Below are positions 4,353 through 37,662 of a stretch of 64,000 nucleotides of DNA, in pieces; the first letter of the stretch is position 1, and each line of letters starts with the position of its first letter. The DNA comes from Pontiella sp. (GTDB taxonomy: Bacteria > Verrucomicrobiota > Kiritimatiellia > Kiritimatiellales > Pontiellaceae). Below the pieces are notes generated by a model. It was not told the DNA's origin. It saw only the letters and a program-made list of their open reading frames with translations, and did no database searches. A program made the translations under genes and the position numbers. The stretch covers positions 217,508 to 281,507 of the forward strand of contig JBNKHE010000006.1 in NCBI GenBank assembly GCA_050290185.1, given 5' to 3'.

Positions 4353-4373
4353 CTACGCAGCCGCGATGTTGAC
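4353..4373 (-). repeat. leuS 3'-tail copy 6 (short, degenerate)
   Basis: GTC AAC ATC GCG GCT GCG TAG = VNIAAA* versus leuS VNIAVS*; intergenic, same strand as leuS. Confidence 0.5.
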
Positions 4374-4386
4374 TCGTGTTGCAGCC

Positions 4387-6384
4387 TCAGTCAACCCAGG
4401 GACGGGCCTGTTTAAAGACGAGGGTACCATCGGCCAAAAACTTGAATTCCACCTCCATCGCAAAATCAGGCCGGCCTTCGGCACCGTATGCCCGCTGGAA
4501 ATGATCGTGCACCCGCTCCAACTCATCAGCCAGCTGAACCGCCTGGGTCTGCGACAGCACATGACTGCCTTTTGGTATCAGATTGGAATGGCGAATATAC
4601 TGGATCTCGTATTCGCTCTGACCGCTAAGTTCGGAAATCAGGAATTCATCCGGAACAACCCCATCATCCGGATTGGTCACCAGCGATTCGCCCACCTGTA
4701 CGTTGACATAGTATCCCCGCCAGTCGGAATCATACAGGTTCCGGGTTACGGCCACCCCGTTGGCCGATTCGTCGCGATAGCTTGGATGGCACAGGACCCC
4801 CATGGCGGAGCGGAGGTGATCAATCCGGTAGAATTCGCGCTCCTCAAACGCCCGGAAACTCCAATTCCCGGCCCAGATCTGCTTGATCGTATGGCTCAGA
4901 TGCCCTTCATCGGGCTTGTGCGTTTTTGAATCATAGAGCCCGGCCCCGCTGAAGCCCTCAAGATCTTCCACATTCGCACTCGAGCGGCATCGGATCCGCG
5001 TATCCGGCGCAAACCGATGTTGCAGCGCCCCCAGTGCTTCCATCATGTCGGGCGGCAGGGTTCCGGCCCGGATCTGTCTGCGAAACTTTTTCAGGGCATC
5101 TTCCCGCACCACCTCATTGGTCTTGAAAGCCGGATCGGCCATCATGGTTTCAGCCACGGCATAGAATCCGTTGGACTGCATGAAACGGTCGTACATCGAA
5201 AACGGCACCGCATAGCCCTCCGGCGCCATGCCACCGGGCATGATATGCCGAAGCTCGGCGACATTGGCCGACTTGGAACCATAGGCATCGTAGGCCGACC
5301 GCCCGATATCAGCCAGGGCCGCAATCGCCGATACGGAAAGATTGCGCACAGGGACCTGCGGTTTGGCGGGCCGGATCGATGCCTGGAACGTATCAACCTC
5401 CACCTGAGATGCGGGCTTAATGGTATAGCCATCGGGCGTGAGTTCAAAACGCACATTCCGCCCGATCAGCGGCTGGATCTCCGGCCGGGTGGAGGCATTC
5501 CGGATATACGCATTGGGAATACCGTCCTGCCGGGCCTTCAGGTTGACGTGGGAGAGCGGCGTCTGCGGATCTTCCGTAATGAGACCGGCAACACAGGCAA
5601 GATCATTTGGCACCGACCGGAAAATCACGATATCGCGCGGCGTCAAGCGGATCCCCGGTTCTGCCACCATCAATCGACCATAGGCACAACCTAAATGGAG
5701 AGGACATTCCTGCCGGCTCCCCAAAAGCTGATCCGTCGAGATGGTCCGCACGCAAGAGTTGCTGTAAGCCGCCCGTTCCTCCTCGAGCAGGATTCGTTGC
5801 GTCTCCCCGCTGGGATGATACAACAGGCGATCCCCGGCAAACGGCATGGCTTCGGCAATGAGTCTGTAAGCGGTTTCCACGAACGGAAAACCCACGGGAT
5901 CGGAAGGCCAGAACTCGAGGGTGTAGACGCCGGCCGTCTCCCGGTCGTCTGTCGGAACCGAAACGCGGTCATGCGCAATGATGCTTCCCGCCAGATTTTT
6001 CCGGTTCCGGTCCCGAAAGTAGGTGACGGCTTCAAATGCATCGCTTCCGTCGCTGTATCCAAGAATCTCGCGGGCGAAGCAGTAATGATACACATGCTTT
6101 TTCGAATTCATGAAATAGAGCCTGGGCCGATCCGAACCAGCATCCATGATGACAAACTTGAGTTCAAACACCCCGTAGGCGCCCGGAACATCATCGCGAC
6201 TGGCCAGCATCTCAAAACTCAGCCGGTCCGGGACCTCCAGCGCCCCGTCCGACGGAAGCAATGGCTTTCCGTTAATCAGCGGGCGTGACGACGCCTGCGG
6301 GACCGGATCAGCGTCCGCAGCCCGCGCGGTGATTGAAGCCAGCACACAGCAAAGAATCAACCACGCTGTTTTCAGTTTTGGCAT
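4387..6384 (-). CDS. Secreted PEP/pyruvate-binding (PPDK N-terminal ATP-grasp) domain protein
   Basis: Signal peptide; YGSKSANV, RCRSSANVEDLEGFSGAGLYDS and EVEFK...KQARP motifs. Confidence 0.85.
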   Translation of the reverse strand: MPKLKTAWLILCCVLASITARAADADPVPQASSRPLINGKPLLPSDGALEVPDRLSFEMLASRDDVPGAYGVFELKFVIMDAGSDRPRLYFMNSKKHVYHYCFAREILGYSDGSDAFEAVTYFRDRNRKNLAGSIIAHDRVSVPTDDRETAGVYTLEFWPSDPVGFPFVETAYRLIAEAMPFAGDRLLYHPSGETQRILLEEERAAYSNSCVRTISTDQLLGSRQECPLHLGCAYGRLMVAEPGIRLTPRDIVIFRSVPNDLACVAGLITEDPQTPLSHVNLKARQDGIPNAYIRNASTRPEIQPLIGRNVRFELTPDGYTIKPASQVEVDTFQASIRPAKPQVPVRNLSVSAIAALADIGRSAYDAYGSKSANVAELRHIMPGGMAPEGYAVPFSMYDRFMQSNGFYAVAETMMADPAFKTNEVVREDALKKFRRQIRAGTLPPDMMEALGALQHRFAPDTRIRCRSSANVEDLEGFSGAGLYDSKTHKPDEGHLSHTIKQIWAGNWSFRAFEEREFYRIDHLRSAMGVLCHPSYRDESANGVAVTRNLYDSDWRGYYVNVQVGESLVTNPDDGVVPDEFLISELSGQSEYEIQYIRHSNLIPKGSHVLSQTQAVQLADELERVHDHFQRAYGAEGRPDFAMEVEFKFLADGTLVFKQARPWVD

Positions 6385-6421
6385 TCAGTACCCTTGTCCT
6401 CTTTATCGACACCCCGGCCAA

Positions 6422-7684
6422 TCATTCCTGCGCGTTGGAGTCAACAAACCAACCGCTGTAGTTGACGTCATGGCGATCCGCGATTGCCCTCATGTATTTC
6501 GAGTTCTTGAAGACAGCATTCAGATTGGAAAGCGTTACCTTGCCGCGCAGCACAAGCAGGTAGTATCGGCTTCCATCCCGAGCCTTTTCCTCGGATATCT
6601 CGCCAACCTTGAAGGCCGTTTCCCCTATTTTTGAAACCAGGGCCTCCAGCGGTGGCTTTTCATCCGACCACAAGTAATACGAAACCACCTGCTCGCGGCA
6701 AATATCCGTTCCGCGGGAGCGAACGGTTGCGAGGGTTTCCAAATCCTCCGACTCATGCTGGGCAGCCCAAAAGCGGTCATAGGTTTGCTGTAGCTGTTCC
6801 TGTGTGACCTGAACGGTTTCCGCGCCGGCGCAATTCGCGATCTGTTCCGCCAAAAACTCATTCAAAGGATACAACGCATCAAAGTGCGAGGCGCCTTTAA
6901 TAGCAAAGCAGTGTAGTTTTGGATTCTTGTTCGCCGCCGCCATCTGTTCCAACTGCCCGATGTTCCCGCCGCTTCCTTCGATCAGATAGGTGGGCGATGA
7001 AATCGCGTTGATATAGACGGCCGGAGACCGAAGCGCATCCTCCTTCTTGTTCGCCGGATCATAGTTCACCGAATCCGGCCCATAGGCCGACGGCGCCGAT
7101 ACGGCACCAAATGCAAATACGGCCTTGAACTCCTTCGTGGCCTCGGCCGTCAGCAGCGCCAACGTTCCGCCTGTGCTGTGGCCGCCCAGATAAATCTGCT
7201 TTGGGTCGACATAAGGTACTTTTTGAAGATATTTCAGTGCAGCCAAAACATCGTCTACTTCCCCCAGAAACGATTCCTGTTTCCCCGGATTTCCGCAGCT
7301 TCCCCGGAAGCTGGGATACATCATCACCACGCCGGCTTCATGATATGCCAGCGCGGATTGATCATTGTCATAGGAGGAGGGCTCCCAGATCCATTCGCCT
7401 ATACCACCCGGAGGGAAACCGCCCGTTATCCAGATGATCGCCGGATATTTTTTATTCACGTTCTCGGGCCTACTTAGATAGGCCTGCATATCACCGATCG
7501 CTGTTGGATACTTTACGATGGAAAACGCACTATCCGGCGGCTTGGCCAAGGCGCTCTTGTCGCTGATTGTGCGAACCAGCTCCGTCTTAAAGCCCTTGCG
7601 CGCCTCAAGAAGCGCAGTTTCTGCAGTTCCGCCATATACCAGGGAGAAGAAGAATGTGAACGTTGCGATCAGTTTGAATTTCAT
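6422..7684 (-). CDS. Secreted alpha/beta hydrolase (S9 peptidase-like) with small C-terminal RraB/DUF695-like domain
   Basis: GGHSTGG nucleophile motif and GASHF His motif; C-terminal YSGW. Confidence 0.85.
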   Translation of the reverse strand: MKFKLIATFTFFFSLVYGGTAETALLEARKGFKTELVRTISDKSALAKPPDSAFSIVKYPTAIGDMQAYLSRPENVNKKYPAIIWITGGFPPGGIGEWIWEPSSYDNDQSALAYHEAGVVMMYPSFRGSCGNPGKQESFLGEVDDVLAALKYLQKVPYVDPKQIYLGGHSTGGTLALLTAEATKEFKAVFAFGAVSAPSAYGPDSVNYDPANKKEDALRSPAVYINAISSPTYLIEGSGGNIGQLEQMAAANKNPKLHCFAIKGASHFDALYPLNEFLAEQIANCAGAETVQVTQEQLQQTYDRFWAAQHESEDLETLATVRSRGTDICREQVVSYYLWSDEKPPLEALVSKIGETAFKVGEISEEKARDGSRYYLLVLRGKVTLSNLNAVFKNSKYMRAIADRHDVNYSGWFVDSNAQE

Positions 7685-7813
7685 GGTTCTCCTTTTATAT
7701 AATATCGCGTACAGGACGCATGCATATGCGATCCGTTAGCCCGTTGTACCATTCATGGATTCGTGACAAAATACGAAACGTTTAAGATCAACATCAAGGG
7801 ATGGAGCGGAAGG

Positions 7814-7879
7814 CGATGAAACTGCAATGTTCACCAAACACCCCGAAACCACAATCACCTTGCGGATGATTTTTCCATC
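7814..7879 (-). repeat. leuS 3'-tail copy 5
   Basis: Translates DGKIIRKVIVVSGCLVNIAVSS (stop decayed to TCG) versus leu[22 protein letters not shown]. Confidence 0.9.
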
Positions 7880-8440
7880 GGGAAAACCGTACCTTTTGGC
7901 GGGTTTGACGGCAGCTTCACTTTTGTCGTTGGAGGCTCAGGCAGGACTCATTGATGCTGCGGCCAACTAATGTGATTTTTGCCACGAAAAGGCACAAGGA
8001 TTCACAAAAAGAAAGCACGCAGTTTTGTACTCCCCGTTAGCTTTGCATTTTCCTGCCAGCTTATCTTTACCAAAAGATGCACAAGAGACTCATAACCATG
8101 AGAAGCATAAAGGATTCAATGCGTTCCTTTTTGCGTATTGGAAGCGTTCACTACGTTCCTTATCTGCTTCGCAGATTATCGGCGCGTTGTTTCGCGAGGG
8201 TTAAAATCCATTGGGTTTGGACTTTGCCGCGCCAGGTCGTTTGTGACTATTCGCTCGTAACTTTTCATTCACAATATTTAATCGCCGGAGCAATAGTTAC
8301 TGACCCAATCCGCATCGCACATCAACCCATTCAACTTCCCGTCTAATCTCACAACAAAATATTGAGCTTTCATTTTGAATATATAATTATGCTCTCTTAA
8401 ACACATCTCATGTGTATTAAATCATAGAAAGGTTGTTTCC

Positions 8441-8977
8441 ATGAAAATCGCTCGTCTCATCAAGTTTAGTCTCATGTCCGTTGCGACCATCACCCTCCTT
8501 ACCGGATGCGGTACAATTTCCGGCATTAACGCTTCTAAAGGACAAACTATAAGGAATGCATCCAAGTACGATCAGATTGCCGTAATGGATTTCTCCAATA
8601 AAACAGCGAAGAAAAACGCAGGCGTCATTTTTGCCGATCGTATTGCTGACAAACTGGAAGCTAAAGGCGGATTTAAAAACGTTACGCGTAATAAGCCGGA
8701 GGGTAATGCGCTGGTCATATCCGGCACGATCACGCGTTGTGAAGATGGTAATGCAACTGCACGTATGTGGATTGGATTGGGCGCGGGAAGCTCATACTTT
8801 GACGCCGATGTAAAGTTTAGCGGGAATTTGGAATCCAGTGAATGGGGCACCATAACGGTTGATAAAAACAGCTGGGTGCTGGGTGGTGCAGTGGCGGCAT
8901 CTCAGGATGTAGATTATTTCATGAATGAAGCTGCAGATAAAATATGCGAAGAGCTTGAGAAGACAACCACATTATAA
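8441..8977 (+). CDS. Lipoprotein, DUF4410-like
   Basis: Lipobox LLTGC; GNATARMWIGLGAGSS motif. Confidence 0.8.
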   Translation: MKIARLIKFSLMSVATITLLTGCGTISGINASKGQTIRNASKYDQIAVMDFSNKTAKKNAGVIFADRIADKLEAKGGFKNVTRNKPEGNALVISGTITRCEDGNATARMWIGLGAGSSYFDADVKFSGNLESSEWGTITVDKNSWVLGGAVAASQDVDYFMNEAADKICEELEKTTTL

Positions 8978-9009
8978 TCACGCTGACCACAAGATCGGAA
9001 ACAACAAAC

Positions 9010-9669
9010 ATGAAGAAGAAACAACTACTCATCCTCCCGCTCTTAGCCCTTGTATTTCTTGAAACAGGTTGTACGTCCTATAGCTTCCGAGGCGCTCATG
9101 CCACACCCGCCCCGACAAATCCCGTTAGTCTGGATAAAAAATACAAACTGACAAGCTACAACAATAGTTTCAAGGCATCTGCAACTCCCTGGTCCATAAC
9201 CGGCTACGGAGCAATCAAGCTCTCCAAAAGAGATATTGAAAGACAACTCGTCGATCAATATCCCAATTACTTCACCCGCGATGAACAGGGGATTCCAATC
9301 AAAGTATCTGTTGATCTCGAAAACACGAAGCGACACATGTGGGGCCTCGTGCCCTATTTGGCAACCCTCGGAATCTATCCCGCGAGGATTATAAATTTTG
9401 AGGACGACTGCGCGGTTACCGTCAGCGTTCTCAACGCAAAAAAAACGGGAAATGTACGTTTCCGAAGCAACTCATGGCTCAGTGTCTGGACACCGTTCGG
9501 TTTAACAAGAAAAGATAAACCGGATAACTTTACAGGCGAACACCGACACGGCAGTGGTGTTATGATCGCGCCACACCTAAGCTCCAAATGCGCAACCGAC
9601 CAGAAGGAAACCTATTTGGTCGAAGTATGCGATGAAGTGGCCGCAATAATTATGTCTTGGCCCAACTGA
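9010..9669 (+). CDS. Hypothetical lipoprotein
   Basis: Lipobox-like ETGC; 219 aa, follows the previous lipoprotein. Confidence 0.75.
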   Translation: MKKKQLLILPLLALVFLETGCTSYSFRGAHATPAPTNPVSLDKKYKLTSYNNSFKASATPWSITGYGAIKLSKRDIERQLVDQYPNYFTRDEQGIPIKVSVDLENTKRHMWGLVPYLATLGIYPARIINFEDDCAVTVSVLNAKKTGNVRFRSNSWLSVWTPFGLTRKDKPDNFTGEHRHGSGVMIAPHLSSKCATDQKETYLVEVCDEVAAIIMSWPN

Positions 9670-9699
9670 CCGTCGACACTCGCTGGTTAAGACGGAAAG

Positions 9700-9731
9700 A
9701 ATGACTGGGTTTCATATTCCAGTCATTTTTT
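9700..9731. terminator. Hairpin terminator between lipoprotein gene and leuS-tail copy 4
   Basis: AATGACTGG...CCAGTCATT stem followed by a T-run. Confidence 0.7.
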
Positions 9732-9734
9732 GCG

Positions 9735-9800
9735 TTACGAAACCGCGATGTTCACAAGCCGGCCGGAAACGACGATGACTTTGCGAATGGTTTTTTCTTC
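9735..9800 (-). repeat. leuS 3'-tail copy 4
   Basis: Translates [21 protein letters not shown] (TAA). Confidence 0.95.
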
Positions 9801-9847
9801 CGAATGAGGCCTCGTTGCCGAGTCCAACCCGGCTCATGGGGCGAGCC
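9801..9847. repeat. Conserved cassette-end motif (copy B) with hairpin
   Basis: CGAATGAGGCCTCGTTGCCGAGTCCAACCCGGCTCATGGGGCGAGCC, about 80% identical to 15664-15709. Confidence 0.85.
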
Positions 9848-9930
9848 CCTATTGGACTTTACCGGAGACCATGTTGCACGAAAACAGCGTTGAGTTAGCC
9901 CCCGCTGTGGATTCTAATGGGTGAAACATT

Positions 9931-11712
9931 ATGAAGATTCTACTGATCACACCTCCGTTGCTTCAACCCAACACGCCTTATGCCGCCACGCCGCTGCTCA
10001 CGGCGTGGCTGCGGAATAACGGACATGATGCGGTTCAGGCTGATCTTTCGCTGGAACTGTTGCTTAAACTTTTTTCCAGGGAGGGGGTGGCGGCGCTCTG
10101 CCGAACGCTGGAAGCGTACCCGGAGGCGGAGGCTTTTCTGGAAGCAGAGCCGGATTATCTTGAGACCATTGATGAGGTGATGGCCTTTTTGCAGGATCAA
10201 AATCCGGCGGCTTCCAAACAGATTGCGCGGCGCGGCTGGCTTCCTGAAGGCCCGCATCTCTACCATGCCTACGAGCAGGAGGAGCAGTTCGGATGGGACT
10301 TTCGCGGCCTCGACGAGGCGGATCGCGCACGGCATCTGGCCAGTTTGTATCTCGACGACCTCGCCGAAGCCGCCAAACTGGCCGATCCGAATTTTGGTTT
10401 TTCCCGCTATGCGGAAAAGCTCGGCGCCAGCCTTCCCCGGTTCGGAAAACTACAGGAAACGCTGGAGGCGCCCCCGTCCCTGTTTTCTTCTTGGCTGGTC
10501 GATCTGACAGACAGGCAACTGCAAAAACATGCGCCGGACATGGTGGCTCTGACGGTTCCATTTCCGGGATGTCTCTTAGGGGCGCTAACCATTGCCCGCC
10601 GAATCAAACAAACCGTTCCCGATATGCACGTCACCATCGGCGGCGGTTATGTGAATACGGAGCTACCCGAACTGCGCGATCCCTCCATTTTCGATTATGT
10701 CGATTCCATCACCCTCGATAGCGGCATGCTTCCGTTGCTGCAGCTGGCCAATCAAGCCACACCCATCCGAACCTTTGTCCGCGAGGGCGGAGCGGTTCGG
10801 TATTATGAAGACGCCGCAACACCCATTGCCCACAACGCCTTGCCCGCCCCCGTATATGACGGTCTTGAGCTGAACCGCTATTTCGGCCTCTTTGAAATGC
10901 TCAATCCGGTTACACGGCTCTGGTCGGACGGGCGCTGGAACAAGCTTATGCTGGCGCACGGCTGCTGCTGGCGCCGCTGTGAATTCTGCGATACGTCGAT
11001 CGATTATATCCGCCGCTACGACCCCGCCGAACCGTCCGTGATCTGCGACTGGATCGAAGCCATGATTGCGCAGAGCGGTTTTAACGGATTCCATTTTGTG
11101 GATGAATCCCTGCCGCACGATCTACTGGACGGATTATGCGATGAAATCCTGCGCCGCGGGCTGGAGATTGAGTGGTGGGGCAACATTCGTTTTGAAAACC
11201 GCTTTTCAAATGCGCTGATTCAAAAAATGGCCGCCTCAGGCTGTATTGCCGTAACCGGCGGCTTGGAAACCTGCAACGACCGGACCTTAAAGCTGATGCG
11301 CAAAGGTATTACGGTAAACGGCGCAACTCAGGTGCTTGAAAATCTGGCCGATGCGGGAATCCTGACCCACGCCTACCTGATGTATGGGTTTCCAACCCAG
11401 ACCGAACAGGAAACGCTTCAGGCGCTGGAAACCATTCGCCGCCTGTTTGATGAAGGCATCCTGCACTCCGCCTTCTGGCACTGTTTTGCCCTGACCGCAC
11501 ACAGCCCGATCGCATGTGATCCCGAGAAATATTCCATCGCGCTGAAAGAGCCGCCGCCTGCCGACTTTGCCCGCAATGAAATTCCGTTCGATGGACACTT
11601 CGACCACGATCCAAAAATTATCGGCGAGGCCCTGCGCGTTGCCACCTACAACTATATGCACGGCATTGGCTTCGACCGCCCCGTTGATCAGTGGTTGGAC
11701 GCTAACCCCTGA
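9931..11712 (+). CDS. B12-binding-domain radical SAM protein
   Basis: NTPYAATPLL, IGGGYVNT, CCWRRCEFCD (CxxxCxxC) and FHFVDE motifs. Confidence 0.9.
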   Translation: MKILLITPPLLQPNTPYAATPLLTAWLRNNGHDAVQADLSLELLLKLFSREGVAALCRTLEAYPEAEAFLEAEPDYLETIDEVMAFLQDQNPAASKQIARRGWLPEGPHLYHAYEQEEQFGWDFRGLDEADRARHLASLYLDDLAEAAKLADPNFGFSRYAEKLGASLPRFGKLQETLEAPPSLFSSWLVDLTDRQLQKHAPDMVALTVPFPGCLLGALTIARRIKQTVPDMHVTIGGGYVNTELPELRDPSIFDYVDSITLDSGMLPLLQLANQATPIRTFVREGGAVRYYEDAATPIAHNALPAPVYDGLELNRYFGLFEMLNPVTRLWSDGRWNKLMLAHGCCWRRCEFCDTSIDYIRRYDPAEPSVICDWIEAMIAQSGFNGFHFVDESLPHDLLDGLCDEILRRGLEIEWWGNIRFENRFSNALIQKMAASGCIAVTGGLETCNDRTLKLMRKGITVNGATQVLENLADAGILTHAYLMYGFPTQTEQETLQALETIRRLFDEGILHSAFWHCFALTAHSPIACDPEKYSIALKEPPPADFARNEIPFDGHFDHDPKIIGEALRVATYNYMHGIGFDRPVDQWLDANP

Positions 11713-13288: not shown

Positions 13289-13361
13289 GCCGATCCCTTA
13301 AATAATTTTCAGCAATCTATTCTCAAAATTTCAGCCGTGCAAGACGGGACGGGTTAATACA

Positions 13362-13397
13362 GAAAGGCCCCTTTGTGGACAAGGATGCGGGGCTTTC
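13362..13397 (-). terminator. Terminator-like hairpin after leuS-tail copy 3, homologous to the true leuS terminator
   Basis: GAAAGGCCCC...GGGGCTTTC; shares the CGGGGCTTT arm with 16993-17001. Confidence 0.6.
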
Positions 13398-13417
13398 GAG
13401 TTCTTGAGGTGGTTCGA

Positions 13418-13435
13418 CTACGAAAGCGCGATGTT
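13418..13435 (-). repeat. leuS 3'-tail copy 3 (truncated)
   Basis: NIALS* followed by TCGAAC, the same six bases that follow the true leuS stop. Confidence 0.75.
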
Positions 13436-13482
13436 GCCAGGTTCGATAGCGCAGGGTAATAGCAAAATCATTATTTGGCACT

Positions 13483-13525
13483 TCGTTGCCCCGCATGCGC
13501 GGAGCCTCTTTCGCCCTACAGGCTC
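13483..13525. repeat. REP-like hairpin element
   Basis: Minus strand GTAGGGCGAAAGAGGCTCCGCGCATGCGGGGCAACGA; 23/25 identical to 63224-63248. Confidence 0.7.
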
Positions 13526-13554
13526 AGGTCATAGGACCGATCCCTGCCCGCTTA

Positions 13555-14607
13555 TTAAATCTCCTGTGAGGGTTTGCCGAAGTCCTTGATCGTCGCTTCA
13601 AGCGGTGTGCCACTGTATTTCTTCAGAAGTCTGGCGGCATCTCTTTCCTGACTAGAAGTGCAAGGGTTGTTGCGATAGTCCATGACATCGGTGTTGAAGT
13701 ACTCGTCGGCAAAATCTTCCATATCATCCAGCCCATCGATATAGGTTTTTACCTTCGGATCCATCTTGAGCTTGGCGAGAAGTTCTTTTGCCTGTGCGGC
13801 GTGTGGCGCCTTTCTAACCTCCGCAAGCACCGATGCGTTTTCATAGGCAAAGTAGGGATCGGTTTCATATTTGGCCTCGATTTCGCCGAAGAGCATTTCG
13901 GAAAATTCGTCTAGCTCGGCTTTACTGCCCTTCTTTGCGAGGTATTTCCCATTCAGCCAGGTAATGGCATCAAAAATCAGGTCTTCGCCGGCCCAGACGT
14001 GTCCGCCTGGGAAATAGCGAAGACGACCGTCCTTTTTAATGCGCTTTTGGAATGTGATGGTCATGTCCCAGCGGTTGAAGCAATAGCCTCCGCACAGCCC
14101 GTAGGCCAGCGCATCGTTTTGATAGTTATTCCCAGAATCTCCGGCCCCGCATGGAATAATTCCGATGATGTTGCTCTTCATCTTATTCGCCAACCAGAAA
14201 GCCTCGCGGCCACCGCCGGAAAAGCCGGAGGCGTAGCAACGTTTTTCATTCACATGAAAGTGGTCAAATACATCCTCGACCATGGCTTTGATGGCTTGTT
14301 GCGATTTATCGTTGCGGTTGCTCGACTCCCTGGACATTACCAGAATCCAGTTGTTCTTCTCTGCGCCGCGAACATAGCGCTGAATTCCGCTACCTTTCCC
14401 GCCGCCCGGATGCATGACGAAGAGAACCGGATATTTATCAGCTCGGTTGGTGTCATAGCTGGTCGGGAGGTATAGAAGGTAGGAGAAGTCCCGATCGTCC
14501 TCGCACTTGATCCCCTCAATAATCTGACCGGTCTTGTGTTCCTGGGCAAACAGTGAAGATGAAAGAGCAATAAGCAGAGCGGATGCGGCAAGACATTTTT
14601 TAATCAT
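13555..14607 (-). CDS. Secreted esterase / alpha-beta hydrolase
   Basis: Signal peptide MIKKCLAAS; YLLYLPTSY, SGFSGGG and FPGGHVW motifs. Confidence 0.85.
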   Translation of the reverse strand: MIKKCLAASALLIALSSSLFAQEHKTGQIIEGIKCEDDRDFSYLLYLPTSYDTNRADKYPVLFVMHPGGGKGSGIQRYVRGAEKNNWILVMSRESSNRNDKSQQAIKAMVEDVFDHFHVNEKRCYASGFSGGGREAFWLANKMKSNIIGIIPCGAGDSGNNYQNDALAYGLCGGYCFNRWDMTITFQKRIKKDGRLRYFPGGHVWAGEDLIFDAITWLNGKYLAKKGSKAELDEFSEMLFGEIEAKYETDPYFAYENASVLAEVRKAPHAAQAKELLAKLKMDPKVKTYIDGLDDMEDFADEYFNTDVMDYRNNPCTSSQERDAARLLKKYSGTPLEATIKDFGKPSQEI

Positions 14608-14726
14608 AACTTTTCCTTCGGCATAAGATTGGTTAATCCCTGAAAAGACAATGACACTCCTAAGGAGGAGGACGCAAATCAAAAGCGATACCTCTCCGCC
14701 AGCAAGATGTAACCGAGATCCCCGAT

Positions 14727-14780
14727 CACCAGCCGCCCGGGGACGACGATGACTTTGCGGATGGTTTTTCCTTCGAGTCA
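14727..14780 (-). repeat. leuS 3'-tail copy 2 (3'-truncated)
   Basis: Translates [17 protein letters not shown], with TGA at the Trp position; begins 10 bp after the stop of 14791..15522. Confidence 0.95.
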
Positions 14781-14790
14781 GAGATGTATG

Positions 14791-15522
14791 TTAAACCTCG
14801 ACTACGCCCTTGCAATCGGGATAGGCGGAACAGCCCCAGAATGAGTTGCCGGCGTTCTGGCCGGAACGGGCCGTGCGGAGCACCATCGGCTTGTTGCATT
14901 TCGGGCAGGCGGGAACCGGGTCGTTCGTCTTTTGTTTCTGGCGCTCCTTCAAGCGTTCGGCGGCTAGCAACTCGCTATAACCGCCCTCGGAAACAAACTG
15001 CTCCTCCAACGCCGCGATCTGCTGATCGAGTAGAAAGTTGGTCTGGTGGATCAGGCAGATCAGCGCGTTGGCCCGAACCGCCGGGTTTTCATGCTCCAGC
15101 CATTCGGCATAGAGCATGGAGCGCTCCTGATCCGTCAAATCAGCCAGATTGGACCGATCCTCCCGATCTTTCTTGAACTTCCTCGGCACATTCCGCACCG
15201 CAAGAGCTTCCGCCGAGTTCAGCTCCCACATTTCCAGCCGCCGATGCCGCAGGAAATCCTCGTAGTCGAGCAGGAGTTCTTCAAGGCTGGCCCGCGCAAC
15301 ATTCACCAGCCGCAGTTCCGTCTGGCTGGAGGTGGCGGAAGCCCGGCTTCCCTCCGCAATGTTCTGCCGCCCGCTCCGCGCGGCCTGCACCATCTGGTCG
15401 ATGGTTCGCGAACGGGAATCGACAAACTTTTCACAGAACCAAACCGTGGCATCATAGATGATCGTCGCCGTCTGGAACGTCGCCAACTTCCGGTATCCCC
15501 CGCTCTTCCGTATTTTTCCCAT
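14791..15522 (-). CDS. Four-helix-bundle (23S rRNA IVP-like) protein with suffix domain and topoisomerase-type C4 zinc finger
   Basis: DQMVQAARSGRQNIAEGS, ARASLEELLLDYEDFLR, GGYSELL and CPKC...FWGCSAYPDC motifs. Confidence 0.9.
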   Translation of the reverse strand: MGKIRKSGGYRKLATFQTATIIYDATVWFCEKFVDSRSRTIDQMVQAARSGRQNIAEGSRASATSSQTELRLVNVARASLEELLLDYEDFLRHRRLEMWELNSAEALAVRNVPRKFKKDREDRSNLADLTDQERSMLYAEWLEHENPAVRANALICLIHQTNFLLDQQIAALEEQFVSEGGYSELLAAERLKERQKQKTNDPVPACPKCNKPMVLRTARSGQNAGNSFWGCSAYPDCKGVVEV

Positions 15523-15597
15523 GCCTTCCTCCAGTAATTCGTCCGATTTGTCAGATCCGACTGATTACCAGAGAAAGATATTCTTTAAAAGAACGGT

Positions 15598-15663
15598 CTA
15601 CGAAACCGCAATATTCACCAACCGGCCGGGGACGACGATGACTTTGCGGATGGTTTTGCCTTC
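15598..15663 (-). repeat. leuS 3'-tail copy 1
   Basis: Translates [21 protein letters not shown] (TAG). Confidence 0.97.
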
Positions 15664-15709
15664 CGAGTGAGAACTCGTTGCCGCGACCAACTCAGCTCAT
15701 GAGCGAGCT
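15664..15709. repeat. Conserved cassette-end motif (copy A) with hairpin
   Basis: CGAGTGAGAACTCGTTGCCGCGACCAACTCAGCTCATGAGCGAGCT; homologous to 9801-9847. Confidence 0.85.
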
Positions 15710-15781
15710 AGGACTAGTCTTTTTTTCAGAAGCGAAGTCTGAAAACATTATTTCATAGGATCGCCCCCGGTTCGGCGGCGG

Positions 15782-15811
15782 AAAAAAGGAGCCGAGACAA
15801 CACTCGGCTCC
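15782..15811 (-). terminator. Rho-independent terminator of the DUF2188 unit
   Basis: Minus strand GGAGCCGAG-tgttgt-CTCGGCTCC-TTTTTT. Confidence 0.8.
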
Positions 15812-15824
15812 GCGCTTCATAATC

Positions 15825-16046
15825 CTATCCCTTGGGAGGATAGGGATCTTTTCGGTAGGTTCGTTCTTCCCGAATTCTACCATCAGGACGGTGAACAAAC
15901 ACCTGACCTTTCCGCGGTATCGCGAGATCACGCGCCTGATCAAGTGCTTCGGATTGAGTTCCTGCGACTGAAGAACAGCGTGATGCGCCTTCGCGCTTAA
16001 CACCCCATTGATCACCGTTTTTCACTACATGATACTTTTCTTTCAT
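15825..16046 (-). CDS. DUF2188-family protein
   Basis: YHVV...WGVKREGA.R.S....TQ.EA...AR...VHRPDGRIREERTY..DPYPPKG pattern; AAGGAG RBS. Confidence 0.9.
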   Translation of the reverse strand: MKEKYHVVKNGDQWGVKREGASRCSSVAGTQSEALDQARDLAIPRKGQVFVHRPDGRIREERTYRKDPYPPKG

Positions 16047-16105
16047 TATCTAGCTCCTTGTTAGTTTAGAGCTGGGAGGAGGCTTCCTCCTCCCAGCAGT
16101 TTGCC

Positions 16106-16210
16106 TTATACGTAGAAGCAGAACGGTTTCCCGTCGCGTCTGTACACTCGGCGCTTAGTGATGTAGTGCACGAAATATTTGCAATACACCTTGCGTCGTG
16201 GTTTGCCCAT
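16106..16210 (-). CDS. 34-aa basic/aromatic small protein (below the ORF-track cutoff)
   Basis: MGKPRRKVYCKYFVHYITKRRVYRRDGKPFCFYV* with a perfect AAGGAGG RBS 6 nt upstream. Confidence 0.75.
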   Translation of the reverse strand: MGKPRRKVYCKYFVHYITKRRVYRRDGKPFCFYV

Positions 16211-16251
16211 TTCGGGCCTCCTTACGGCATTGCCGCTTAAGAGTTTCCTTC

Positions 16252-16388
16252 TTGACGCATTAGGCAGGAGCTGAGATAAACAAGCTTTGAAACGGAGCTA
16301 CTGCCTAGTGCATCGGCTCTTGTCATCGGTACTGGTAATACCTATGACACCGACAGCTGTTAACCCTCGAGGTTAGCAGCTTTTTTTA
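16252..16388 (+). ncRNA. Candidate ~100-nt antisense RNA with its own promoter and terminator
   Basis: TTGACG-17 bp-GATAAA (16252-16280); hairpin TGTCATCGGTA...TACCTATGACA; terminator GCTGTTAACC...GGTTAGCAGC-TTTTTTT. Confidence 0.5.
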
Positions 16389-16835
16389 TACTTCGTCATG
16401 CATAGCATCCTCCCTTTCATTATCTTCATTCGAATCAGCATCTAAACGCACGATGACAATCATCTTTTCGGCATAGACCTCTGGATCGTATGAAATTGTT
16501 TTTTTTGAATAGTTTATTCCACAATAATCGAGGAAAGCCTTTGCCGCTACATGAGCCGTTAGATTGTCAGTATCGTTAGGGTTAGAAGGCCGTAATTGTA
16601 GCTTTGCAACGTCCTCTATTTTTTCTTGGGTAAATCCCAAAGCGATTGCATTGCGGTTACGATCATAATAAAGCTCCACGAACCAGTCCCCGTCTTTTAT
16701 CCCAAGGCGTTTCAGTAATCCTTGCGATAAGCCTATATGGCCTTGTTTTCGAATACTAACCTTCGATACGTAGCTTCCTTTAACATTTCTGAATCGCTCG
16801 AATTCGAACCCCTCAATTGTTCTTCTCGTTCTCAT
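16386..16835 (-). CDS. Hypothetical protein (mobile-element-type, AT-rich)
   Basis: ORF with FERF...KVSIRKQGHIGLSQG...LYYDR; start taken at MRTRRT. Confidence 0.75.
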   Translation of the reverse strand: MRTRRTIEGFEFERFRNVKGSYVSKVSIRKQGHIGLSQGLLKRLGIKDGDWFVELYYDRNRNAIALGFTQEKIEDVAKLQLRPSNPNDTDNLTAHVAAKAFLDYCGINYSKKTISYDPEVYAEKMIVIVRLDADSNEDNEREDAMHDEV

Positions 16836-16910
16836 ACCAGCACCTGAACAAATTCTTTTATCCGTGTCAATTAACAAATTGTGCCTTTCTGCGACCACCA
16901 AGCGGCTTGC

Positions 16911-16928
16911 ACCACAATATATTGTGGT
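16911..16928. promoter_or_regulatory. Perfect 18-bp palindrome matching the NrdR-box consensus
   Basis: ACCACAATATATTGTGGT versus acaCwAtATaTwGtgt. Confidence 0.6.
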
Positions 16929-16973
16929 TATTCCATGTTTTTAAATTAACCAGATGTTCTATGAGATGTTTAT

Positions 16974-17002
16974 AAAAAAAGCCCCGAAAATACGGGGCTT
17001 TT
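16974..17002 (-). terminator. leuS terminator
   Basis: Minus strand AAAAGCCCCG-tatttt-CGGGGCTTTTTTT. Confidence 0.85.
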
Positions 17003-17029
17003 GTGCATTAGACATATGATTGAGTTCGA

Positions 17030-19552
17030 CTACGAAACGGCGATGTTCACGAGGCGGCCGGGGACGACGATTACCTTTCTAACCGTCTTTCCTTCTAACC
17101 AGGATTGGACCTTTTCGGCGGCGAGGGCGATGGCTTCGATCTCTTCCTTAGTGGCGGAGGTGGAAACCTTGATCTGATCGCGGACCTTTCCGTTGACCTG
17201 GACGGCCATGCCGATTTCATCGCGCTTGAGGGCTTCTTCATTCACGACGGGCCAGTCGGCATTCATGATGCCGGCGGCGTGGCCGAGTTCAACCCACAGC
17301 TCTTCGGCGATGTGCGGCGCGAAGGGCGAGATGAGCAGGATGACGTTTTCAATGGCATCGCGGAAAACTACCTTAGCGGATTCGGAACTGTCGTCCGAAA
17401 TCTTGAGGGCGTCGATGGCGTTCATCAGTTCCATGATCGCGGCAATGGCGGTGTTGAAGGTGAAGGCGCCGTCGAGTCCGCGGGTGATCTGCAGGATCGT
17501 TTCGTTGGTCTTGCGGTAGAGGTCGCGTTCGGCGTCGGCCATGTCGGCGATAACCGGCTTTTTGCCTTCAACCGACTTCAGCAACTCGAGGTTGTCGGCG
17601 ACGCGGCGCCAGATGCGTTTGAGGAAGCGGGATGCGCCTTCCACACCGGAGTCCTGCCACTCGGCTTCCTTTTCGGGTGGACCGATGAAGAGCGTGTAGA
17701 GGCGGACGGTGTCGGCGCCGTATTTCTTCAGCAGTTCTTCGGGACTAACCACATTTCCCTTGGATTTGGACATCTTGTAGAGGTTTCCGTCGGGGCCCTT
17801 TTTACAGATCATACCCTGCGTAAAGAGGTGTTTGAACGGCTCGTCAAAGTCGATCAGGCCGAGATCCTTGATGGCTTTGGTGAAGAAGCGGGCATAGAGC
17901 AGATGCAGAATGGCGTGCTCGATGCCGCCGATATATTGGTCGACCGGCATCCATTTGTTGGAAATTGCGGAATCGATCGCCTGCGAAGCATCCTGTGCAC
18001 TGAGATAGCGTAGGAAATACCAGGAGGAATCGACGAAGGTGTCCATGGTGTCGGATTCGCGCGTGGCTGCCCCGCCGCATTTCGGGCAGGTGCAGTTCAT
18101 GAAGGATTCCGAGCCCTTGAGCGGCGATTCGCCTTCGGCCTTGAATTCAACATCGGTCGGCAACAGGATCGGAAGGTTTTCTTCCTTTTCCGGAACCACA
18201 CCGCAGTCGGTGCAGTAAACCATCGGAATCGGTGCGCCCCAGTAGCGCTGACGGGAAATGAGCCAGTCGCGCAGGCGGAAGTTAATCTTTCCGGTGCCAA
18301 ATCCTTTTTCTTCGGCGAGGGCGATCATCTGCTTGATCGCTTCGCGGTTGTCCACGCCGGAAAAGTCACCGGAATCAACGCAGGTGCCGTCTTCGGTATA
18401 GGCGTCTTCCATTTCGTCAAGAACGAGCGAGCCTTCCGGATTCTGGATGGAAAGCTTGATCGGCAGGTCATATTTCTTGGCGAAGGCAAAGTCGCGGGTG
18501 TCGTGCGCCGGAACCGCCATGACCGCGCCGGTGCCGTACATGAGGACATAGTTTCCGACCCACAGCTCGATTTTTTCGCCGTTGTAGGGGTTGATCAGGT
18601 AGCGCCCGGTAAAGCGGCCTTCCTTCTCCACTTCGTCGGCTTCGCGGTCGAGGTTGGTGAGCTTGGAGCTGGCCTTGATAAATTCGAGCACCTCTTCTTC
18701 CTGCGGCAGGCCGGCGATGAGGTTTTTCAGCTCAGGATGTTCGGGAGCCAACGCCATATAGGTGCAGCCGTAGATGGTATCGACGCGGGTTGTGTAGCAG
18801 GCGATTTTATCAACATTGTCCCCTGCCCCGTCTTCGCGCGGCACGATCGGGAAGTCGATTTCCGCGCCTTCGGAGCGGCCGATCCAGTTTTTCTGCATGG
18901 TCTTCACGCGGGTCGGCCAGCCGTCGAGCGTGTCGAGATCATCGAGCAGGCGCTGGGCATAGTCGGTGATTTTGAAGAACCACTGGTCCATCGATTTTTG
19001 GTCGACTTCGGAGTCGCAGCGCTCGCAAGCGCCGTCGACCACCTGCTCGTTGGCCAGTACGGTCGCGCACGACGGGCACCAGTTGACGTTGGAATTCTTT
19101 TTATAGGCGAGGCCCTGTTTGTAGAACTGGATGAAAAGCCACTGCGTCCATTTATAGTAGTCGGGCATGCAGGAGGTGACTTCCTTGTCCCAGTCATACA
19201 TGCAGCCCCAGGCGCGGAGCTGTTCTTTCATGGTGGCAATGTTGGCGGTGGTATATTCCGCCGGCGGTGTGCCGGTCTTGATAGCGGCATTTTCGGCGGG
19301 CAAACCAAACGAGTCCCAGCCCATCGGAGTCAGCACATCGAAACCCTGCATCTTCTTATAGCGCGCAACGGCATCGCCAATGATGTAGTTGCGGCCATGA
19401 CCCACATGGAGCTTGCCCGACGGATACGGGAACATCATCAGGCAGTAGTACGGGTTTTCCGCCGCCGCCAGATCGGTATTAAAATCGCCGTTCTCGTCCC
19501 AGAAGTTCTGCCACTTCTGTTCAATCTCGTTGTAGGGATAATCGTTGTTCAT
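17030..19552 (-). CDS. leuS: Leucine--tRNA ligase
   Basis: [13 protein letters not shown] (HIGH), [23 protein letters not shown] and KMSKS motifs. Confidence 0.99.
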
Positions 19553-37579: not shown

Positions 37580-37662
37580 GACTTACCTCCATCGCTTTAT
37601 TTCCCTTTTTGACCCAGATGGAACAATAAAGGTTCAAACCGCGGATGAATGGGCCATGACGG

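What the first reader, a model, noticed from the sequence alone, without database searches (positions are those of the whole stretch)
4353..17101. Array of cargo cassettes delimited by six copies of the leuS 3' end: candidate tail-replacement gene-capture system
Seen: the end of leuS ([23 protein letters not shown], 17030-17101) recurs on the same strand, always between genes. Copies: 15598-15663 ([21 protein letters not shown]), 14727-14780 ([17 protein letters not shown]), 13418-13435 (NIALS*), 9735-9800 ([21 protein letters not shown]), 7814-7879 (DGKIIRKVIVVSGCLVNIAVSS), 4353-4373 (VNIAAA*). The four long copies all begin at the same point (L-E-G), differ largely at synonymous positions and tend to decay with distance from leuS. 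Each interval holds 1-3 unrelated genes: the DUF2188 unit, a four-helix-bundle protein, an esterase, an FAD oxidoreductase plus radical SAM, two lipoproteins, and a hydrolase plus PPDK-domain protein. Known: islands integrating at 3' ends of protein-coding genes (guaA, trmE) restore the gene and displace the old end, but they encode an integrase. Inference: successive insertions about 70 bp before the leuS stop each supplied a new tail and pushed the old one downstream. This would give an integron-like, chronologically ordered array of 0.8-3.6 kb units with no recombinase in it. I do not know of this being described for leuS.
Basis: partly seen in the sequence, partly recalled or inferred. Interest (0 to 1): 0.93.

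Follow-up and report, generated by a model that had tools for sequence, protein, structure and literature searches.

The report
Relic leuS tails mark insertion hotspot
Downstream of the essential leuS gene of this Pontiella bacterium lie five leftover copies of the gene's last codons separating unrelated gene blocks, which look like scars of repeated recombination-driven insertions, not like a dedicated gene-capture machine.

Summary
The repeats are real. Four long and two short copies of the leuS 3' end lie only downstream of leuS, and public contigs bridge most of them. Three details of the finding fail.

- **Start point:** the copies do not share one. Two carry a ~40-nt insert at -66, and leuS homology resumes beyond it. 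Relic boundaries in Pontiella run from -40 to -366.
- **Copy count:** two "copies" are halves of one tail split by the esterase block. There are five relics, and the order is not strictly chronological.
- **Uniqueness:** leuS is not alone. 17 of 2360 genes in this genome have a same-strand tail copy downstream, against 2 upstream.

No tyrosine or serine recombinase was found among 226 neighbouring ORFs.

Tail replacement is supported. Live and relic tails differ at 31 synonymous against 5 amino-acid-changing codons. The closest relative carries another block behind a chimeric tail.

Best reading: an integrase-free hotspot built by insertions with long target duplication, plus homologous recombination among the tails. 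It is not integron-like. This scan had already noted leuS-tail duplications on other DNA.

The parts
17030..19552 (-). leuS (840 aa), intact
   Evidence: ORF. Pfam tRNA-synt_1, editing domain and Anticodon_1.
17030..17101 (-). Live leuS tail (last 23 codons plus stop). Its first ~33 nt are recoded (TTA, AGA, GTA codons) compared with other Pontiella.
   Evidence: 54 of 66 identical to the consensus of 16 other Pontiella live tails. Alignments.
16950..17029 (-). leuS terminator-like hairpin with a T-run
   Evidence: Sequence. Aligns with the region after relic 13418.
15725..16949 (-). Block A: ORFs 16386-16901 (171 aa) and 15692-16015 (107 aa), no family
   Evidence: only a weak PHROG of unknown function. 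No nucleotide match in 40 relatives' loci.
15598..15724 (-). Relic tail 1: leuS about -86 to 0, interrupted at -66 by the ~40-nt element M (about 15664-15703)
   Evidence: 61 of 66 identical to the genus consensus, peptide unchanged.
14791..15522 (-). Block B: four-helix-bundle / Zn-ribbon gene (243 aa). With relic tail 1 it forms a unit conserved in five other Pontiella species.
   Evidence: Pfam and NCBIfam. 78-90% nt identity with L030, L027, L028 and L029.
14726..14781 (-). Relic tail 2, 5' half (leuS -73 to -18)
13436..14725 (-). Block C: 1.29-kb insert inside relic tail 2, with a secreted esterase-like ORF (13555-14682, 375 aa)
13340..13435 (-). Relic tail 2, 3' half (leuS -18 to stop) plus a leuS-type terminator
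   Evidence: Joined halves are 61 of 66 identical to the consensus.
9907..13303 (.). Block D: B12/radical SAM gene (9931-11712, +) and FAD-dependent protein gene (11702-13288, -). The same 3.4-kb module occurs in G010 and G055 in other contexts.
   Evidence: Pfam. 78-80% nt identity over 3.1-3.4 kb. In G015, G068 and G067 the FAD gene sits at a site that is empty in the window, near 37604-37662.
9735..9873 (-). Relic tail 3: leuS about -97 to 0, with element M (about 9801-9841) at -66
   Evidence: 0 of 300 shuffles.
7903..9734 (+). Block E: two lipoprotein genes, 8441-8977 (DUF4410) and 9010-9669, on the opposite strand
7814..7902 (-). Relic tail 4 (leuS about -92 to -4). Most decayed: stop codon lost, 47 of 66 identical to the consensus.
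4374..7813 (-). Block F: alpha/beta hydrolase-RraB gene (6422-7684) and PPDK_N-domain gene (4387-6384)
4353..4373 (-). Relic tail 5 (leuS -21 to 0, 17 of 21 identical); the weakest copy
3296..4300 (-). First gene beyond the array: acrylyl-CoA reductase family (YhdH)

Best explanation
The region downstream of leuS is an integrase-free insertion hotspot, comparable to an 'additive' flexible genomic islet. Foreign or relocated DNA enters through events that duplicate or replace the 3' end of the gene. Because leuS is essential, only products with an intact reading frame survive. Each event therefore leaves a live tail on the gene and a redundant relic tail behind the new block. This is the known class 'insertion with long and variable target duplication'; a Campbell-type single crossover of a fragment carrying a leuS end would give the same product. 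The relic tails then act as portable homology. Ordinary homologous recombination between tails, within a genome or with DNA from other Pontiella, stacks, swaps and deletes blocks and produces chimeric live tails. Later illegitimate insertions can land inside relics. Shown: the relics, their variable boundaries, the absence of recombinase genes, the allele-like divergence of tails, a chimeric tail in the nearest relative, a block inserted into a relic, shared blocks with conserved junctions in different arrays, and the same footprint at other genes. Inferred: the molecular pathway (RecA-dependent crossover or break repair), how the DNA arrives, and the direction of each event.
For: - **No recombinase.** 0 tyrosine or serine recombinase hits in 16 window ORFs (11 of them inside the array), 106 ORFs and 104 ORFs around the tail copies of 40 loci. 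The 10 Phage_integrase matches in the genome all lie on other contigs.
- **Variable boundaries.** Relic left ends run from -40 through -128, with four more at -208 (L037), -277, -328 and -366. 3'-truncated relics end anywhere from -17 to -34.
- **Relic tails are former functional alleles.** Synonymous-only against amino-acid-changing codons are 11:1, 11:1 and 9:3. Live tails show a lower same-codon fraction (0.52) than leuS overall (0.64) in 17 Pontiella.
- **Crossover inside the tail.** The window and G062 are identical over the first 47 nt of the tail; from there G062 matches G061 and carries G061's block.
- **Block C splits a relic**.
- **Shared junction, different neighbours.** The AAA_16 block keeps the same junction (its stop codon, then leuS at about -90) in L015, L028 and L035, with different downstream neighbours. 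In L028 the duplication spans the tail plus ~320 nt of the next gene.
- **Genome-wide pattern.** 17 genes have an intergenic same-strand tail copy within 20 kb downstream, against 2 upstream and 1 on the opposite strand. Gene heads give 8 against 8 and gene middles 0 against 2.
- **Filled against empty site at mfd.** The window has mfd, a Fic gene, then a relic (-133 to 0 plus ~50 nt of the native downstream). G062 has a single tail followed by that same downstream sequence.
- **Spread.** At least 17 of 52 other Pontiella species' genomes and 2 genomes of a sister family carry two or more leuS tails.
- **Literature.** Insertions with 46-423-bp target duplications and no mobility genes, some overlapping a gene's 3' end, are documented in PMC2853133 (passages read).
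Against: - For leuS, live and relic tails were clearly not identical when displaced (23% different, nearly all synonymous). A plain in-situ target duplication does not explain this. Foreign tails or later exchange among tails must be added.
- Recombination over 60-100 bp at 80-90% identity is inefficient.
- No excision or deletion variant was seen. The two joints touching tail copies in public contigs have short sides (24 nt) or 7 extra letters, and fit other strains' leuS. Contigs cannot show rare forms.
- Many left ends fall between -60 and -100. That may reflect a preferred region, or it may reflect detection limits and the instability of longer repeats.
- The genome-wide count used my own crude ORF calls in one genome. 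Some 'intergenic' copies may be remnants of paralogues (for example GH43 and the 217-aa gene).
- The trans-acting recombinase alternative cannot be excluded by sequence alone.
Confidence: 0.6

Rival explanations
1. Cis-mobilisable elements. The blocks are integrase-less cassettes (CIME-like, or Xer/IMEX-like) that a site-specific recombinase encoded elsewhere inserts into and excises from an att site in the leuS tail, accreting in tandem.
For: The same gene end is reused in at least 17 of 52 other Pontiella species and in a sister family. [quoted passage not shown] The genome encodes tyrosine recombinases elsewhere. Several left ends cluster at -84 to -100 next to unrelated blocks.
Against: There is no fixed junction: boundaries spread over more than 80 nt, with outliers to -366. 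No conserved cassette-end motif exists; the one shared motif, M, is an insert within the tail and also occurs away from leuS. 0 integrases in 226 ORFs. The same footprint at 16 other genes would require many specificities. No leuS-tail copy turned up in viral contigs.
Confidence: 0.13
2. Decayed classical islands. Each block is what remains of an integrase-bearing island or prophage that integrated in the leuS 3' end and later lost its integrase and most of its genes.
For: Cargo in relatives is island-like: restriction-modification, Fic, AbiEii, AAA_16/STAND, Schlafen.
Against: Not one intact or fragmentary integrase, excisionase or phage gene appears in 40 loci. PHROGs gives only one weak hit of unknown function. 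Blocks are very small (0.8-3.6 kb). Junctions vary. Block D is a chromosomal module of the genus, not island cargo.
Confidence: 0.08
3. Remnants of tandem duplications. Segments ending in leuS were duplicated (merodiploidy) and later mostly deleted, leaving second-copy tails.
For: Transformation-triggered tandem duplications by unequal crossover at repeats are documented (PMC3784515, abstract read). The FAD gene lies about 18 kb upstream of leuS in G015, G068 and G067, but downstream of it, before a relic tail, in the window.
Against: Block D matches the rSAM+FAD module of G010 and G055 (78-80% nt). It does not match the native-site arrangement, which has no rSAM gene. The other blocks have no second copy in the genome. 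Tails differ as alleles, not as recent duplicates.
Confidence: 0.05
4. Homing-endonuclease-type mobile ORFs that carry a substitute gene end, as in fungal mitochondrial 'gene hybrids'.
For: An HNH ORF lies between two tail fragments in one relative (L035).
Against: None of the window's 11 array ORFs has a nuclease domain. 1 of 210 ORFs in relatives does.
Confidence: 0.03

Closest known systems
Insertion with long and variable target duplication (Nobusato et al. 2000, recalled; Furuta, Abe & Kobayashi 2010, PMC2853133, passages read)
   Same: Gene blocks without any mobility gene are flanked by direct repeats of tens to hundreds of bp. The repeat is single-copy in the empty-site genome, its length varies, and it sometimes overlaps a gene's 3' end. 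Cargo is often restriction-modification or other addictive modules. The mfd-Fic case against G062 and the AAA_16 case in L028 fit directly.
   Different: Here the process is iterated up to five times at one essential gene. It is strongly biased to gene 3' ends genome-wide (17 against 2). At leuS the two repeats differ as functional alleles, so a foreign or exchanged tail is involved. Most of the window's cargo is not restriction-modification.
Tandem accretion of integrative elements and CIMEs at an att site in a gene's 3' end (ICESt1 family at fda; review PMC5704250, passages read)
   Same: An array of units separated by copies of the target gene's end. Units lack integrases. The old end is pushed downstream.
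   Different: CIMEs keep defined attL and attR cores made by a known integrase family. Here junctions vary and no integrase was found in any of the 40 loci.
Additive flexible genomic islands at tRNA/tmRNA genes (Alteromonas; PMC4898812, passages read)
   Same: A hotspot where cassettes of varied function accumulate. Partial repeats of the target gene follow cassettes. Related species share cassettes irrespective of phylogeny.
   Different: The target is a protein-coding essential gene. Those hotspots are described as site-directed, while this one shows no fixed site and no integrase.
Integron
   Same: An ordered array of small gene blocks next to a fixed anchor.
   Different: No intI, attI or attC. 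Blocks hold 1-2 genes in either orientation, with their own signals.

Membership tests
Integron | Tyrosine recombinase IntI encoded beside the array | tested here: not met
   No PF00589 hit in the 16 window ORFs. The 10 genome matches are all on other contigs.
Integron | Cassettes each end in an attC site and are mostly co-oriented and promoterless | tested here: not met
   3 of the 11 array ORFs, in blocks D and E, lie on the opposite strand. The only shared block-end motif (M) is in 2 of 5 relics and is an insert within the tail.
Site-specific tandem accretion / CIME | Every junction lies at the same att core | tested here: not met
   Left ends run from -40 through -128, with four more at -208, -277, -328 and -366, in the rows that are not live tails. 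In the window they are -73, about -86, about -97, about -92 and -21.
Site-specific tandem accretion / CIME | Related intact elements with a cognate integrase exist at the same site | tested here: not met
   0 integrases among 210 ORFs in 40 loci of 2 families. No leuS tail in viral contigs. More genomes could still hold one.
Insertion with long target duplication | Direct repeats over 30 bp flank the insert, and the repeat is single in an empty-site genome | tested here: met
   mfd: 133-nt repeat in the window, single copy in G062. leuS: the live tail abuts the four-helix-bundle gene in L002 and L040, while a block plus relic lies between them in the window, L027, L028, L029 and L030.
Insertion with long target duplication | No mobility gene in the insert; repeat length varies between events | tested here: met
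Insertion with long target duplication | Both repeats derive from the recipient's own target (near-identical at insertion) | tested here: inconclusive
   Compatible for mfd (11% divergence, 6 synonymous: 6 non-synonymous, 1 stop) and for L028. Not compatible for the leuS relics (31 synonymous: 5 non-synonymous).
Xer-dependent elements (IMEX, pdif modules) | A dif-like XerC/XerD site at each junction | not tested
   The Pontiella dif site is unknown to me, and I ran no search for it.
Homing-endonuclease mobile ORF with substitute gene end | An endonuclease ORF inside the inserted unit | tested here: not met
   0 of 11 window ORFs. One HNH ORF in L035 only.

The most novel reading that the evidence does not exclude
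Pontiella, and perhaps Kiritimatiellales more widely, has a general integrase-independent route of gene acquisition that docks incoming DNA onto the 3' ends of resident, often essential, genes such as leuS, mfd, uvrD and gap. Each event leaves a working gene end and a relic. At leuS, relic tails shared across species turn this into a self-propagating, recombination-driven cassette exchange site. It would be a functional analogue of an integron that needs only the host's recombination machinery.
Probability: 0.3. Interest if true: 0.75.

Novelty: new variant of a known kind. Interest (0 to 1): 0.5.

Why it matters
The mechanism of 'insertion with long target duplication' is still unknown (PMC2853133 only hypothesises double-strand breaks). 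A locus where the process has run at least five times, in a genus that includes named isolated strains, gives that question a concrete test bed. The genome-wide bias to gene 3' ends (17 against 2) adds a second handle. The result also warns that arrays of gene-end repeats need not mean an integrase or an integron-like system. It shows how essential-gene tails can become shared homology that lets accessory genes move between species.

Tried and rejected
- **Assembly artefact: rejected.** Contigs of 4 runs bridge 4 of the 6 copies and the live tail. 14727 and 15598 sit at contig breaks and rest on the genome assembly, plus the conserved tail-and-gene unit in relatives.
- **Excision variants: none usable.** The joint 15663>17445 (side 24 nt) and the joint 14777>17106 with 7 extra letters fit other strains' leuS, so I drew no conclusion.
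- **Rfam:** only two sub-threshold leader-like hits on the terminator.
- **Viral contigs:** no LeuS C-terminal fragment and no tail pattern.
- **Metagenome contigs:** the exact 28-nt live-tail word gave nothing. I did not use the second scan.
- **Nucleotide search of blocks A, C, D, E, F and the flank** against 40 relatives' loci: only block B and motif M matched.
- **Defence annotation of the window's cargo:** PADLOC gave nothing relevant.
- **The recurrent 219 + 392-aa pair next to leuS in relatives:** no Pfam, PHROG or PADLOC family. The atlas neighbours are hypothetical proteins. No sign of a recombinase.
- **The four-helix-bundle/Zn-ribbon gene as the mobile agent:** it lies next to leuS in only 2 of 80 loci found across phyla. 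Repeats of 35 nt or more flank it in 3 of 29 testable loci. I did not pursue it.
- **'leuS recently exchanged between the window and G062': dropped.** mfd is equally similar, 95.5% against 94%.
- **Literature:** the top 15 listed papers of a search for leuS / integrase / attB / genomic island had no occurrence of leuS. Searches for Pontiella islands and for additive islands found nothing on leuS arrays.
- **Boundary script:** the regex removal of M did not restore the upstream homology for the two window copies. For those I rely.

Full report
**1. The observation**

leuS (840 aa) lies on the minus strand at 17030-19552. The repeat finder returns a five-member family of 65 nt at 7815, 9736, 14710, 15599 and 17031 (72-86% identity to the reference copy). 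It also returns a 24-nt family that adds 4347 and 13412.

A profile built from the five copies hits the organism's 3.58-Mb assembly five times, all at this locus (E 3e-21 to 1.5e-17); the next hit has E 0.42. The 21-nt tail end with up to 3 mismatches occurs 3 times in the window, against none in 100 shuffles. All copies are intergenic and on the leuS strand.

Logan contigs from four runs of one study (which may include the source sample) cover the array. One 10.9-kb contig spans 2611-13536 without a mismatch. Other contigs bridge 7814, 9735 and the live tail. No listed piece bridges 14727 or 15598, where contigs stop. The copies are not an assembly artefact.

**2. Corrections to the description**

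- **Start point.** The claim that the four long copies all start at L-E-G does not hold. In 15598 and 9735 a ~40-nt GC-rich element (M) sits at -66. The 20-32 nt on its 5' side are again leuS-like, reaching about -86 and -97 (2 of 300 and 0 of 300 shuffles reach the observed score). The same insert at the same place is seen in displaced tails of two other species, L021 and L001. Copy 7814 reaches about -92 and copy 14727 reaches -73.
- **Copy count.** Copy 14727 covers -73 to -18. Copy 13418 covers -18 to +6 and is followed by a terminator like the one behind live leuS. Joined, they give a complete tail, [21 protein letters not shown], 61 of 66 identical to the consensus of 16 other Pontiella tails. 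The 1.29-kb esterase block was therefore inserted into an already displaced tail. The array holds five relics, not six, and is not strictly chronological.
- **DUF2188.** The label for the first block was not reproduced.

**3. Who and where**

Record titles of two related loci name the genus Pontiella, order Kiritimatiellales.

Among 52 other Pontiella species' genomes, at least 17 carry two or more leuS tails, and two genomes of a sister family do too. Those loci were chosen from the tail searches themselves, so this is a lower bound and not a rate.

Cargo between copies in relatives includes:
- a DpnII-like restriction-modification pair
- Fic
- AbiEii
- an AAA_16/STAND ATPase
- a C5 methylase with a HEPN domain
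- Schlafen
- ordinary enzymes

The window's own cargo is secreted hydrolases, lipoproteins and a radical-SAM/FAD pair. It gave no relevant PADLOC hit.

**4. No recombinase**

Pfam finds no tyrosine or serine recombinase in 16 window ORFs, 106 ORFs and 104 ORFs from 40 loci. The mobility-related hits are few:
- IS66 genes about 2.4 kb beyond the last relic in L015
- DDE_3 fragments 3 kb beyond leuS in L011
- one HNH ORF in L035

The genome's ten Phage_integrase matches are all on other contigs. Viral contigs hold no LeuS C-terminal fragment and no tail pattern.

**5. Junctions are not site-specific**

Among the rows that are not live tails at contig ends, the leuS homology of displaced copies starts anywhere from -40 through -128. 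Four more start at -208 (L037), -277, -328 and -366. Copies truncated on the 3' side stop anywhere between -17 and -34. This spread is hard to reconcile with one att core. It matches the 'long and variable target duplications' described for integrase-free insertions (46-423 bp; PMC2853133, passages read).

**6. Tail replacement is real**

Live against relic tails differ at these counts of synonymous-only against amino-acid-changing codons:

| Relic | Synonymous-only | Amino-acid-changing |
|---|---|---|
| 15598 | 11 | 1 |
| 14727 | 11 | 1 |
| 9735 | 9 | 3 |

By my own estimate, a duplicate decaying beside a constrained copy should give roughly 40% synonymous changes. The observed share is far higher.

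Relic 15598 is 61 of 66 identical to the genus consensus and encodes the consensus peptide. The live tail is only 54 of 66 identical, with unusual TTA, AGA and GTA codons in its first 33 nt. Across 17 Pontiella leuS genes the last 22 codons have a same-codon fraction of 0.52, against 0.64 for the whole gene. Tails are thus more shuffled than the gene body, not more conserved.

The nearest relative is G062 (leuS 94% nt identical, mfd 95.5%). It shares the recoded first 47 nt of the tail. It then switches to the G061-type tail end and continues into the 323-aa block that G061 also has. In G062, G061 and the window alike, a relic tail and the four-helix-bundle gene follow. Block turnover between close relatives is therefore bounded by the tail copies, with a crossover inside the tail.

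**7. Blocks move as units and junctions are inherited**

- The relic tail plus four-helix-bundle gene is a conserved unit in the window, L027, L028, L029 and L030. In L002 and L040 the live tail abuts that gene directly, which is the 'empty' state.
- The AAA_16 gene is followed within 22-25 nt by a tail starting near -90 in L015, L028 and L035, yet the downstream neighbours differ. In L028 the duplication covers the tail plus ~320 nt of the next gene, a classic long target duplication.
- Block D (rSAM + FAD protein, 9907-13303) is a 3.4-kb module also present in G010 and G055 in other contexts (78-80% nt). In G015, G068 and G067 the FAD gene sits at a site that is empty in the window, near 37604-37662.

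**8. leuS is not unique**

I took crude ORF calls for 2360 genes of at least 150 aa on contigs of at least 15 kb. I then searched for copies of each gene's last 90 nt.

| Part of gene searched | Same strand, intergenic, within 20 kb downstream | Same strand, upstream | Opposite strand, downstream |
|---|---|---|---|
| Last 90 nt (tail) | 17 genes | 2 | 1 |
| First 90 nt (head) | 8 | 8 | none listed |
| Middle 90 nt | 2 | 0 | none listed |

The other cases include:
- mfd (-133 to 0, with a Fic gene in between)
- a UvrD-like helicase (-112)
- gap (-67)
- pfkB (-84)
- an ArsA-like ATPase (-57)
- an Orn/DAP decarboxylase (-97)
- a multihaem cytochrome (-72)
- GH127 (-268, with AbiEii in between)

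For mfd, G062 provides the empty site. It has a single tail followed by the same ~50 nt that follow the relic in the window. Only leuS has more than one relic. Some of the 17 may be remnants of paralogues, and I ran the scan on this one genome only.

**9. Mechanism**

The best-supported reading (0.6) has three parts.

- **Primary events.** These are insertions with long target duplication, or equivalently single-crossover integration of a fragment carrying a leuS end. Selection on an essential gene keeps only products with an intact frame.
- **Secondary events.** Ordinary homologous recombination among tails, within the genome or with DNA from other Pontiella, stacks, swaps or deletes blocks and makes chimeric live tails.
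- **Later insertions into relics.** Illegitimate insertions such as block C and element M land inside relic tails.

Interchromatid unequal crossover triggered by incoming DNA is a documented way to obtain duplications (PMC3784515, abstract read).

The molecular pathway, the route of DNA entry and the direction of each event are inferred. No excision product was seen, and contigs could not show one.

**10. Rivals**

- **A trans-acting site-specific recombinase (CIME- or IMEX-like), 0.13.** It is favoured by the repeated use of leuS across the genus. It is disfavoured by the variable junctions, the lack of any integrase and the genome-wide footprint.
- **Decayed classical islands, 0.08.**
- **Remnants of tandem duplication, 0.05.**
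- **Homing-endonuclease cassettes, 0.03.**

These three fit less well, for the reasons given under Rival explanations.

**11. Comparison and novelty**

The closest known kinds are:
- long-target-duplication insertions (PMC2853133)
- tandem accretion with CIMEs at gene 3' ends (PMC5704250, passages read)
- additive flexible genomic islands with partial tRNA repeats (PMC4898812, passages read)

What is new here is the iteration at one essential protein gene, the allele-like relic tails, and the genome-wide 3'-end bias.

My searches found nothing in print on leuS arrays. The library is limited to open-access papers, and I recall the 2000 paper of Nobusato et al. without having read it here.

Earlier notes of this scan reported leuS-tail duplications in two other genomes and read them as old recombination relics. 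My results agree with that reading.

**Verdict:** a real and instructive structure, but not an integron-like capture system. It is a new variant of a known kind, interest 0.5.

Noticed in passing
window 15664-15703 and 9801-9841; also L001:1452-1502, L021:2158-2206, L022-L026: A ~40-nt GC-rich hairpin-like element ('M') is inserted at the same point (-66, within the bases TGGCTCG/GAAGG) of displaced leuS tails in the window (twice), G001 and G063. Diverged copies lie in intergenic sites far from leuS in five other Pontiella genomes. The window's genome holds only the two copies in the array. There is no Rfam match.
   Followed up: partly
G000 genome-wide: e.g. C3:331239-331371 (mfd), C2:310200-310287 (uvrD-like), C9:123861-123914 (gap), C2:88381-88457 (pfkB), C2:135832-135882 (ArsA-like), C1:793042-793130 (Orn/DAP decarboxylase), C8:162706-162777 (multihaem cytochrome), C4:33152-33244 (GH127): 17 of 2360 genes of at least 150 aa have an intergenic same-strand copy of their last 50-390 nt within 20 kb downstream, against 2 upstream. 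Unrelated genes (Fic, AbiEii, large surface proteins) lie in between. Gene starts and middles show no such asymmetry.
   Followed up: partly
window 14791-15522; L041-L120: The four-helix-bundle / topoisomerase-Zn-ribbon gene has more than 500 relatives, with 60-74% protein identity in Chlorobiaceae, Desulfobacterales, Nitrospirota and Chloroflexota MAGs. That suggests a horizontally mobile gene. Direct repeats of 35 nt or more flank it in 3 of 29 testable loci.
   Followed up: partly
window about 37604-37662 versus 11702-13288: The FAD-dependent protein gene is absent from the position it occupies in G015, G068 and G067 (a 60-nt gap in the window) and sits in the leuS array instead. The window's protein is closer to G010 and G067 (84% aa) than to the nearest relatives G062 and G061 (76% and 74%). 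This fits acquisition from another lineage.
   Followed up: partly
L035:4266-4910 (G045): A 160-aa ORF combines a DUF1731 C-terminal fragment with an HNH nuclease domain and sits between two partial leuS tail copies.
   Followed up: no
G011:C48 end and C62 start; G010:C208 end and C214 start; G013:C99; G023:C49: Several relatives' contigs begin or end inside a leuS tail copy, so these repeats break short-read assemblies. Copy numbers in MAGs are therefore lower bounds.
   Followed up: no
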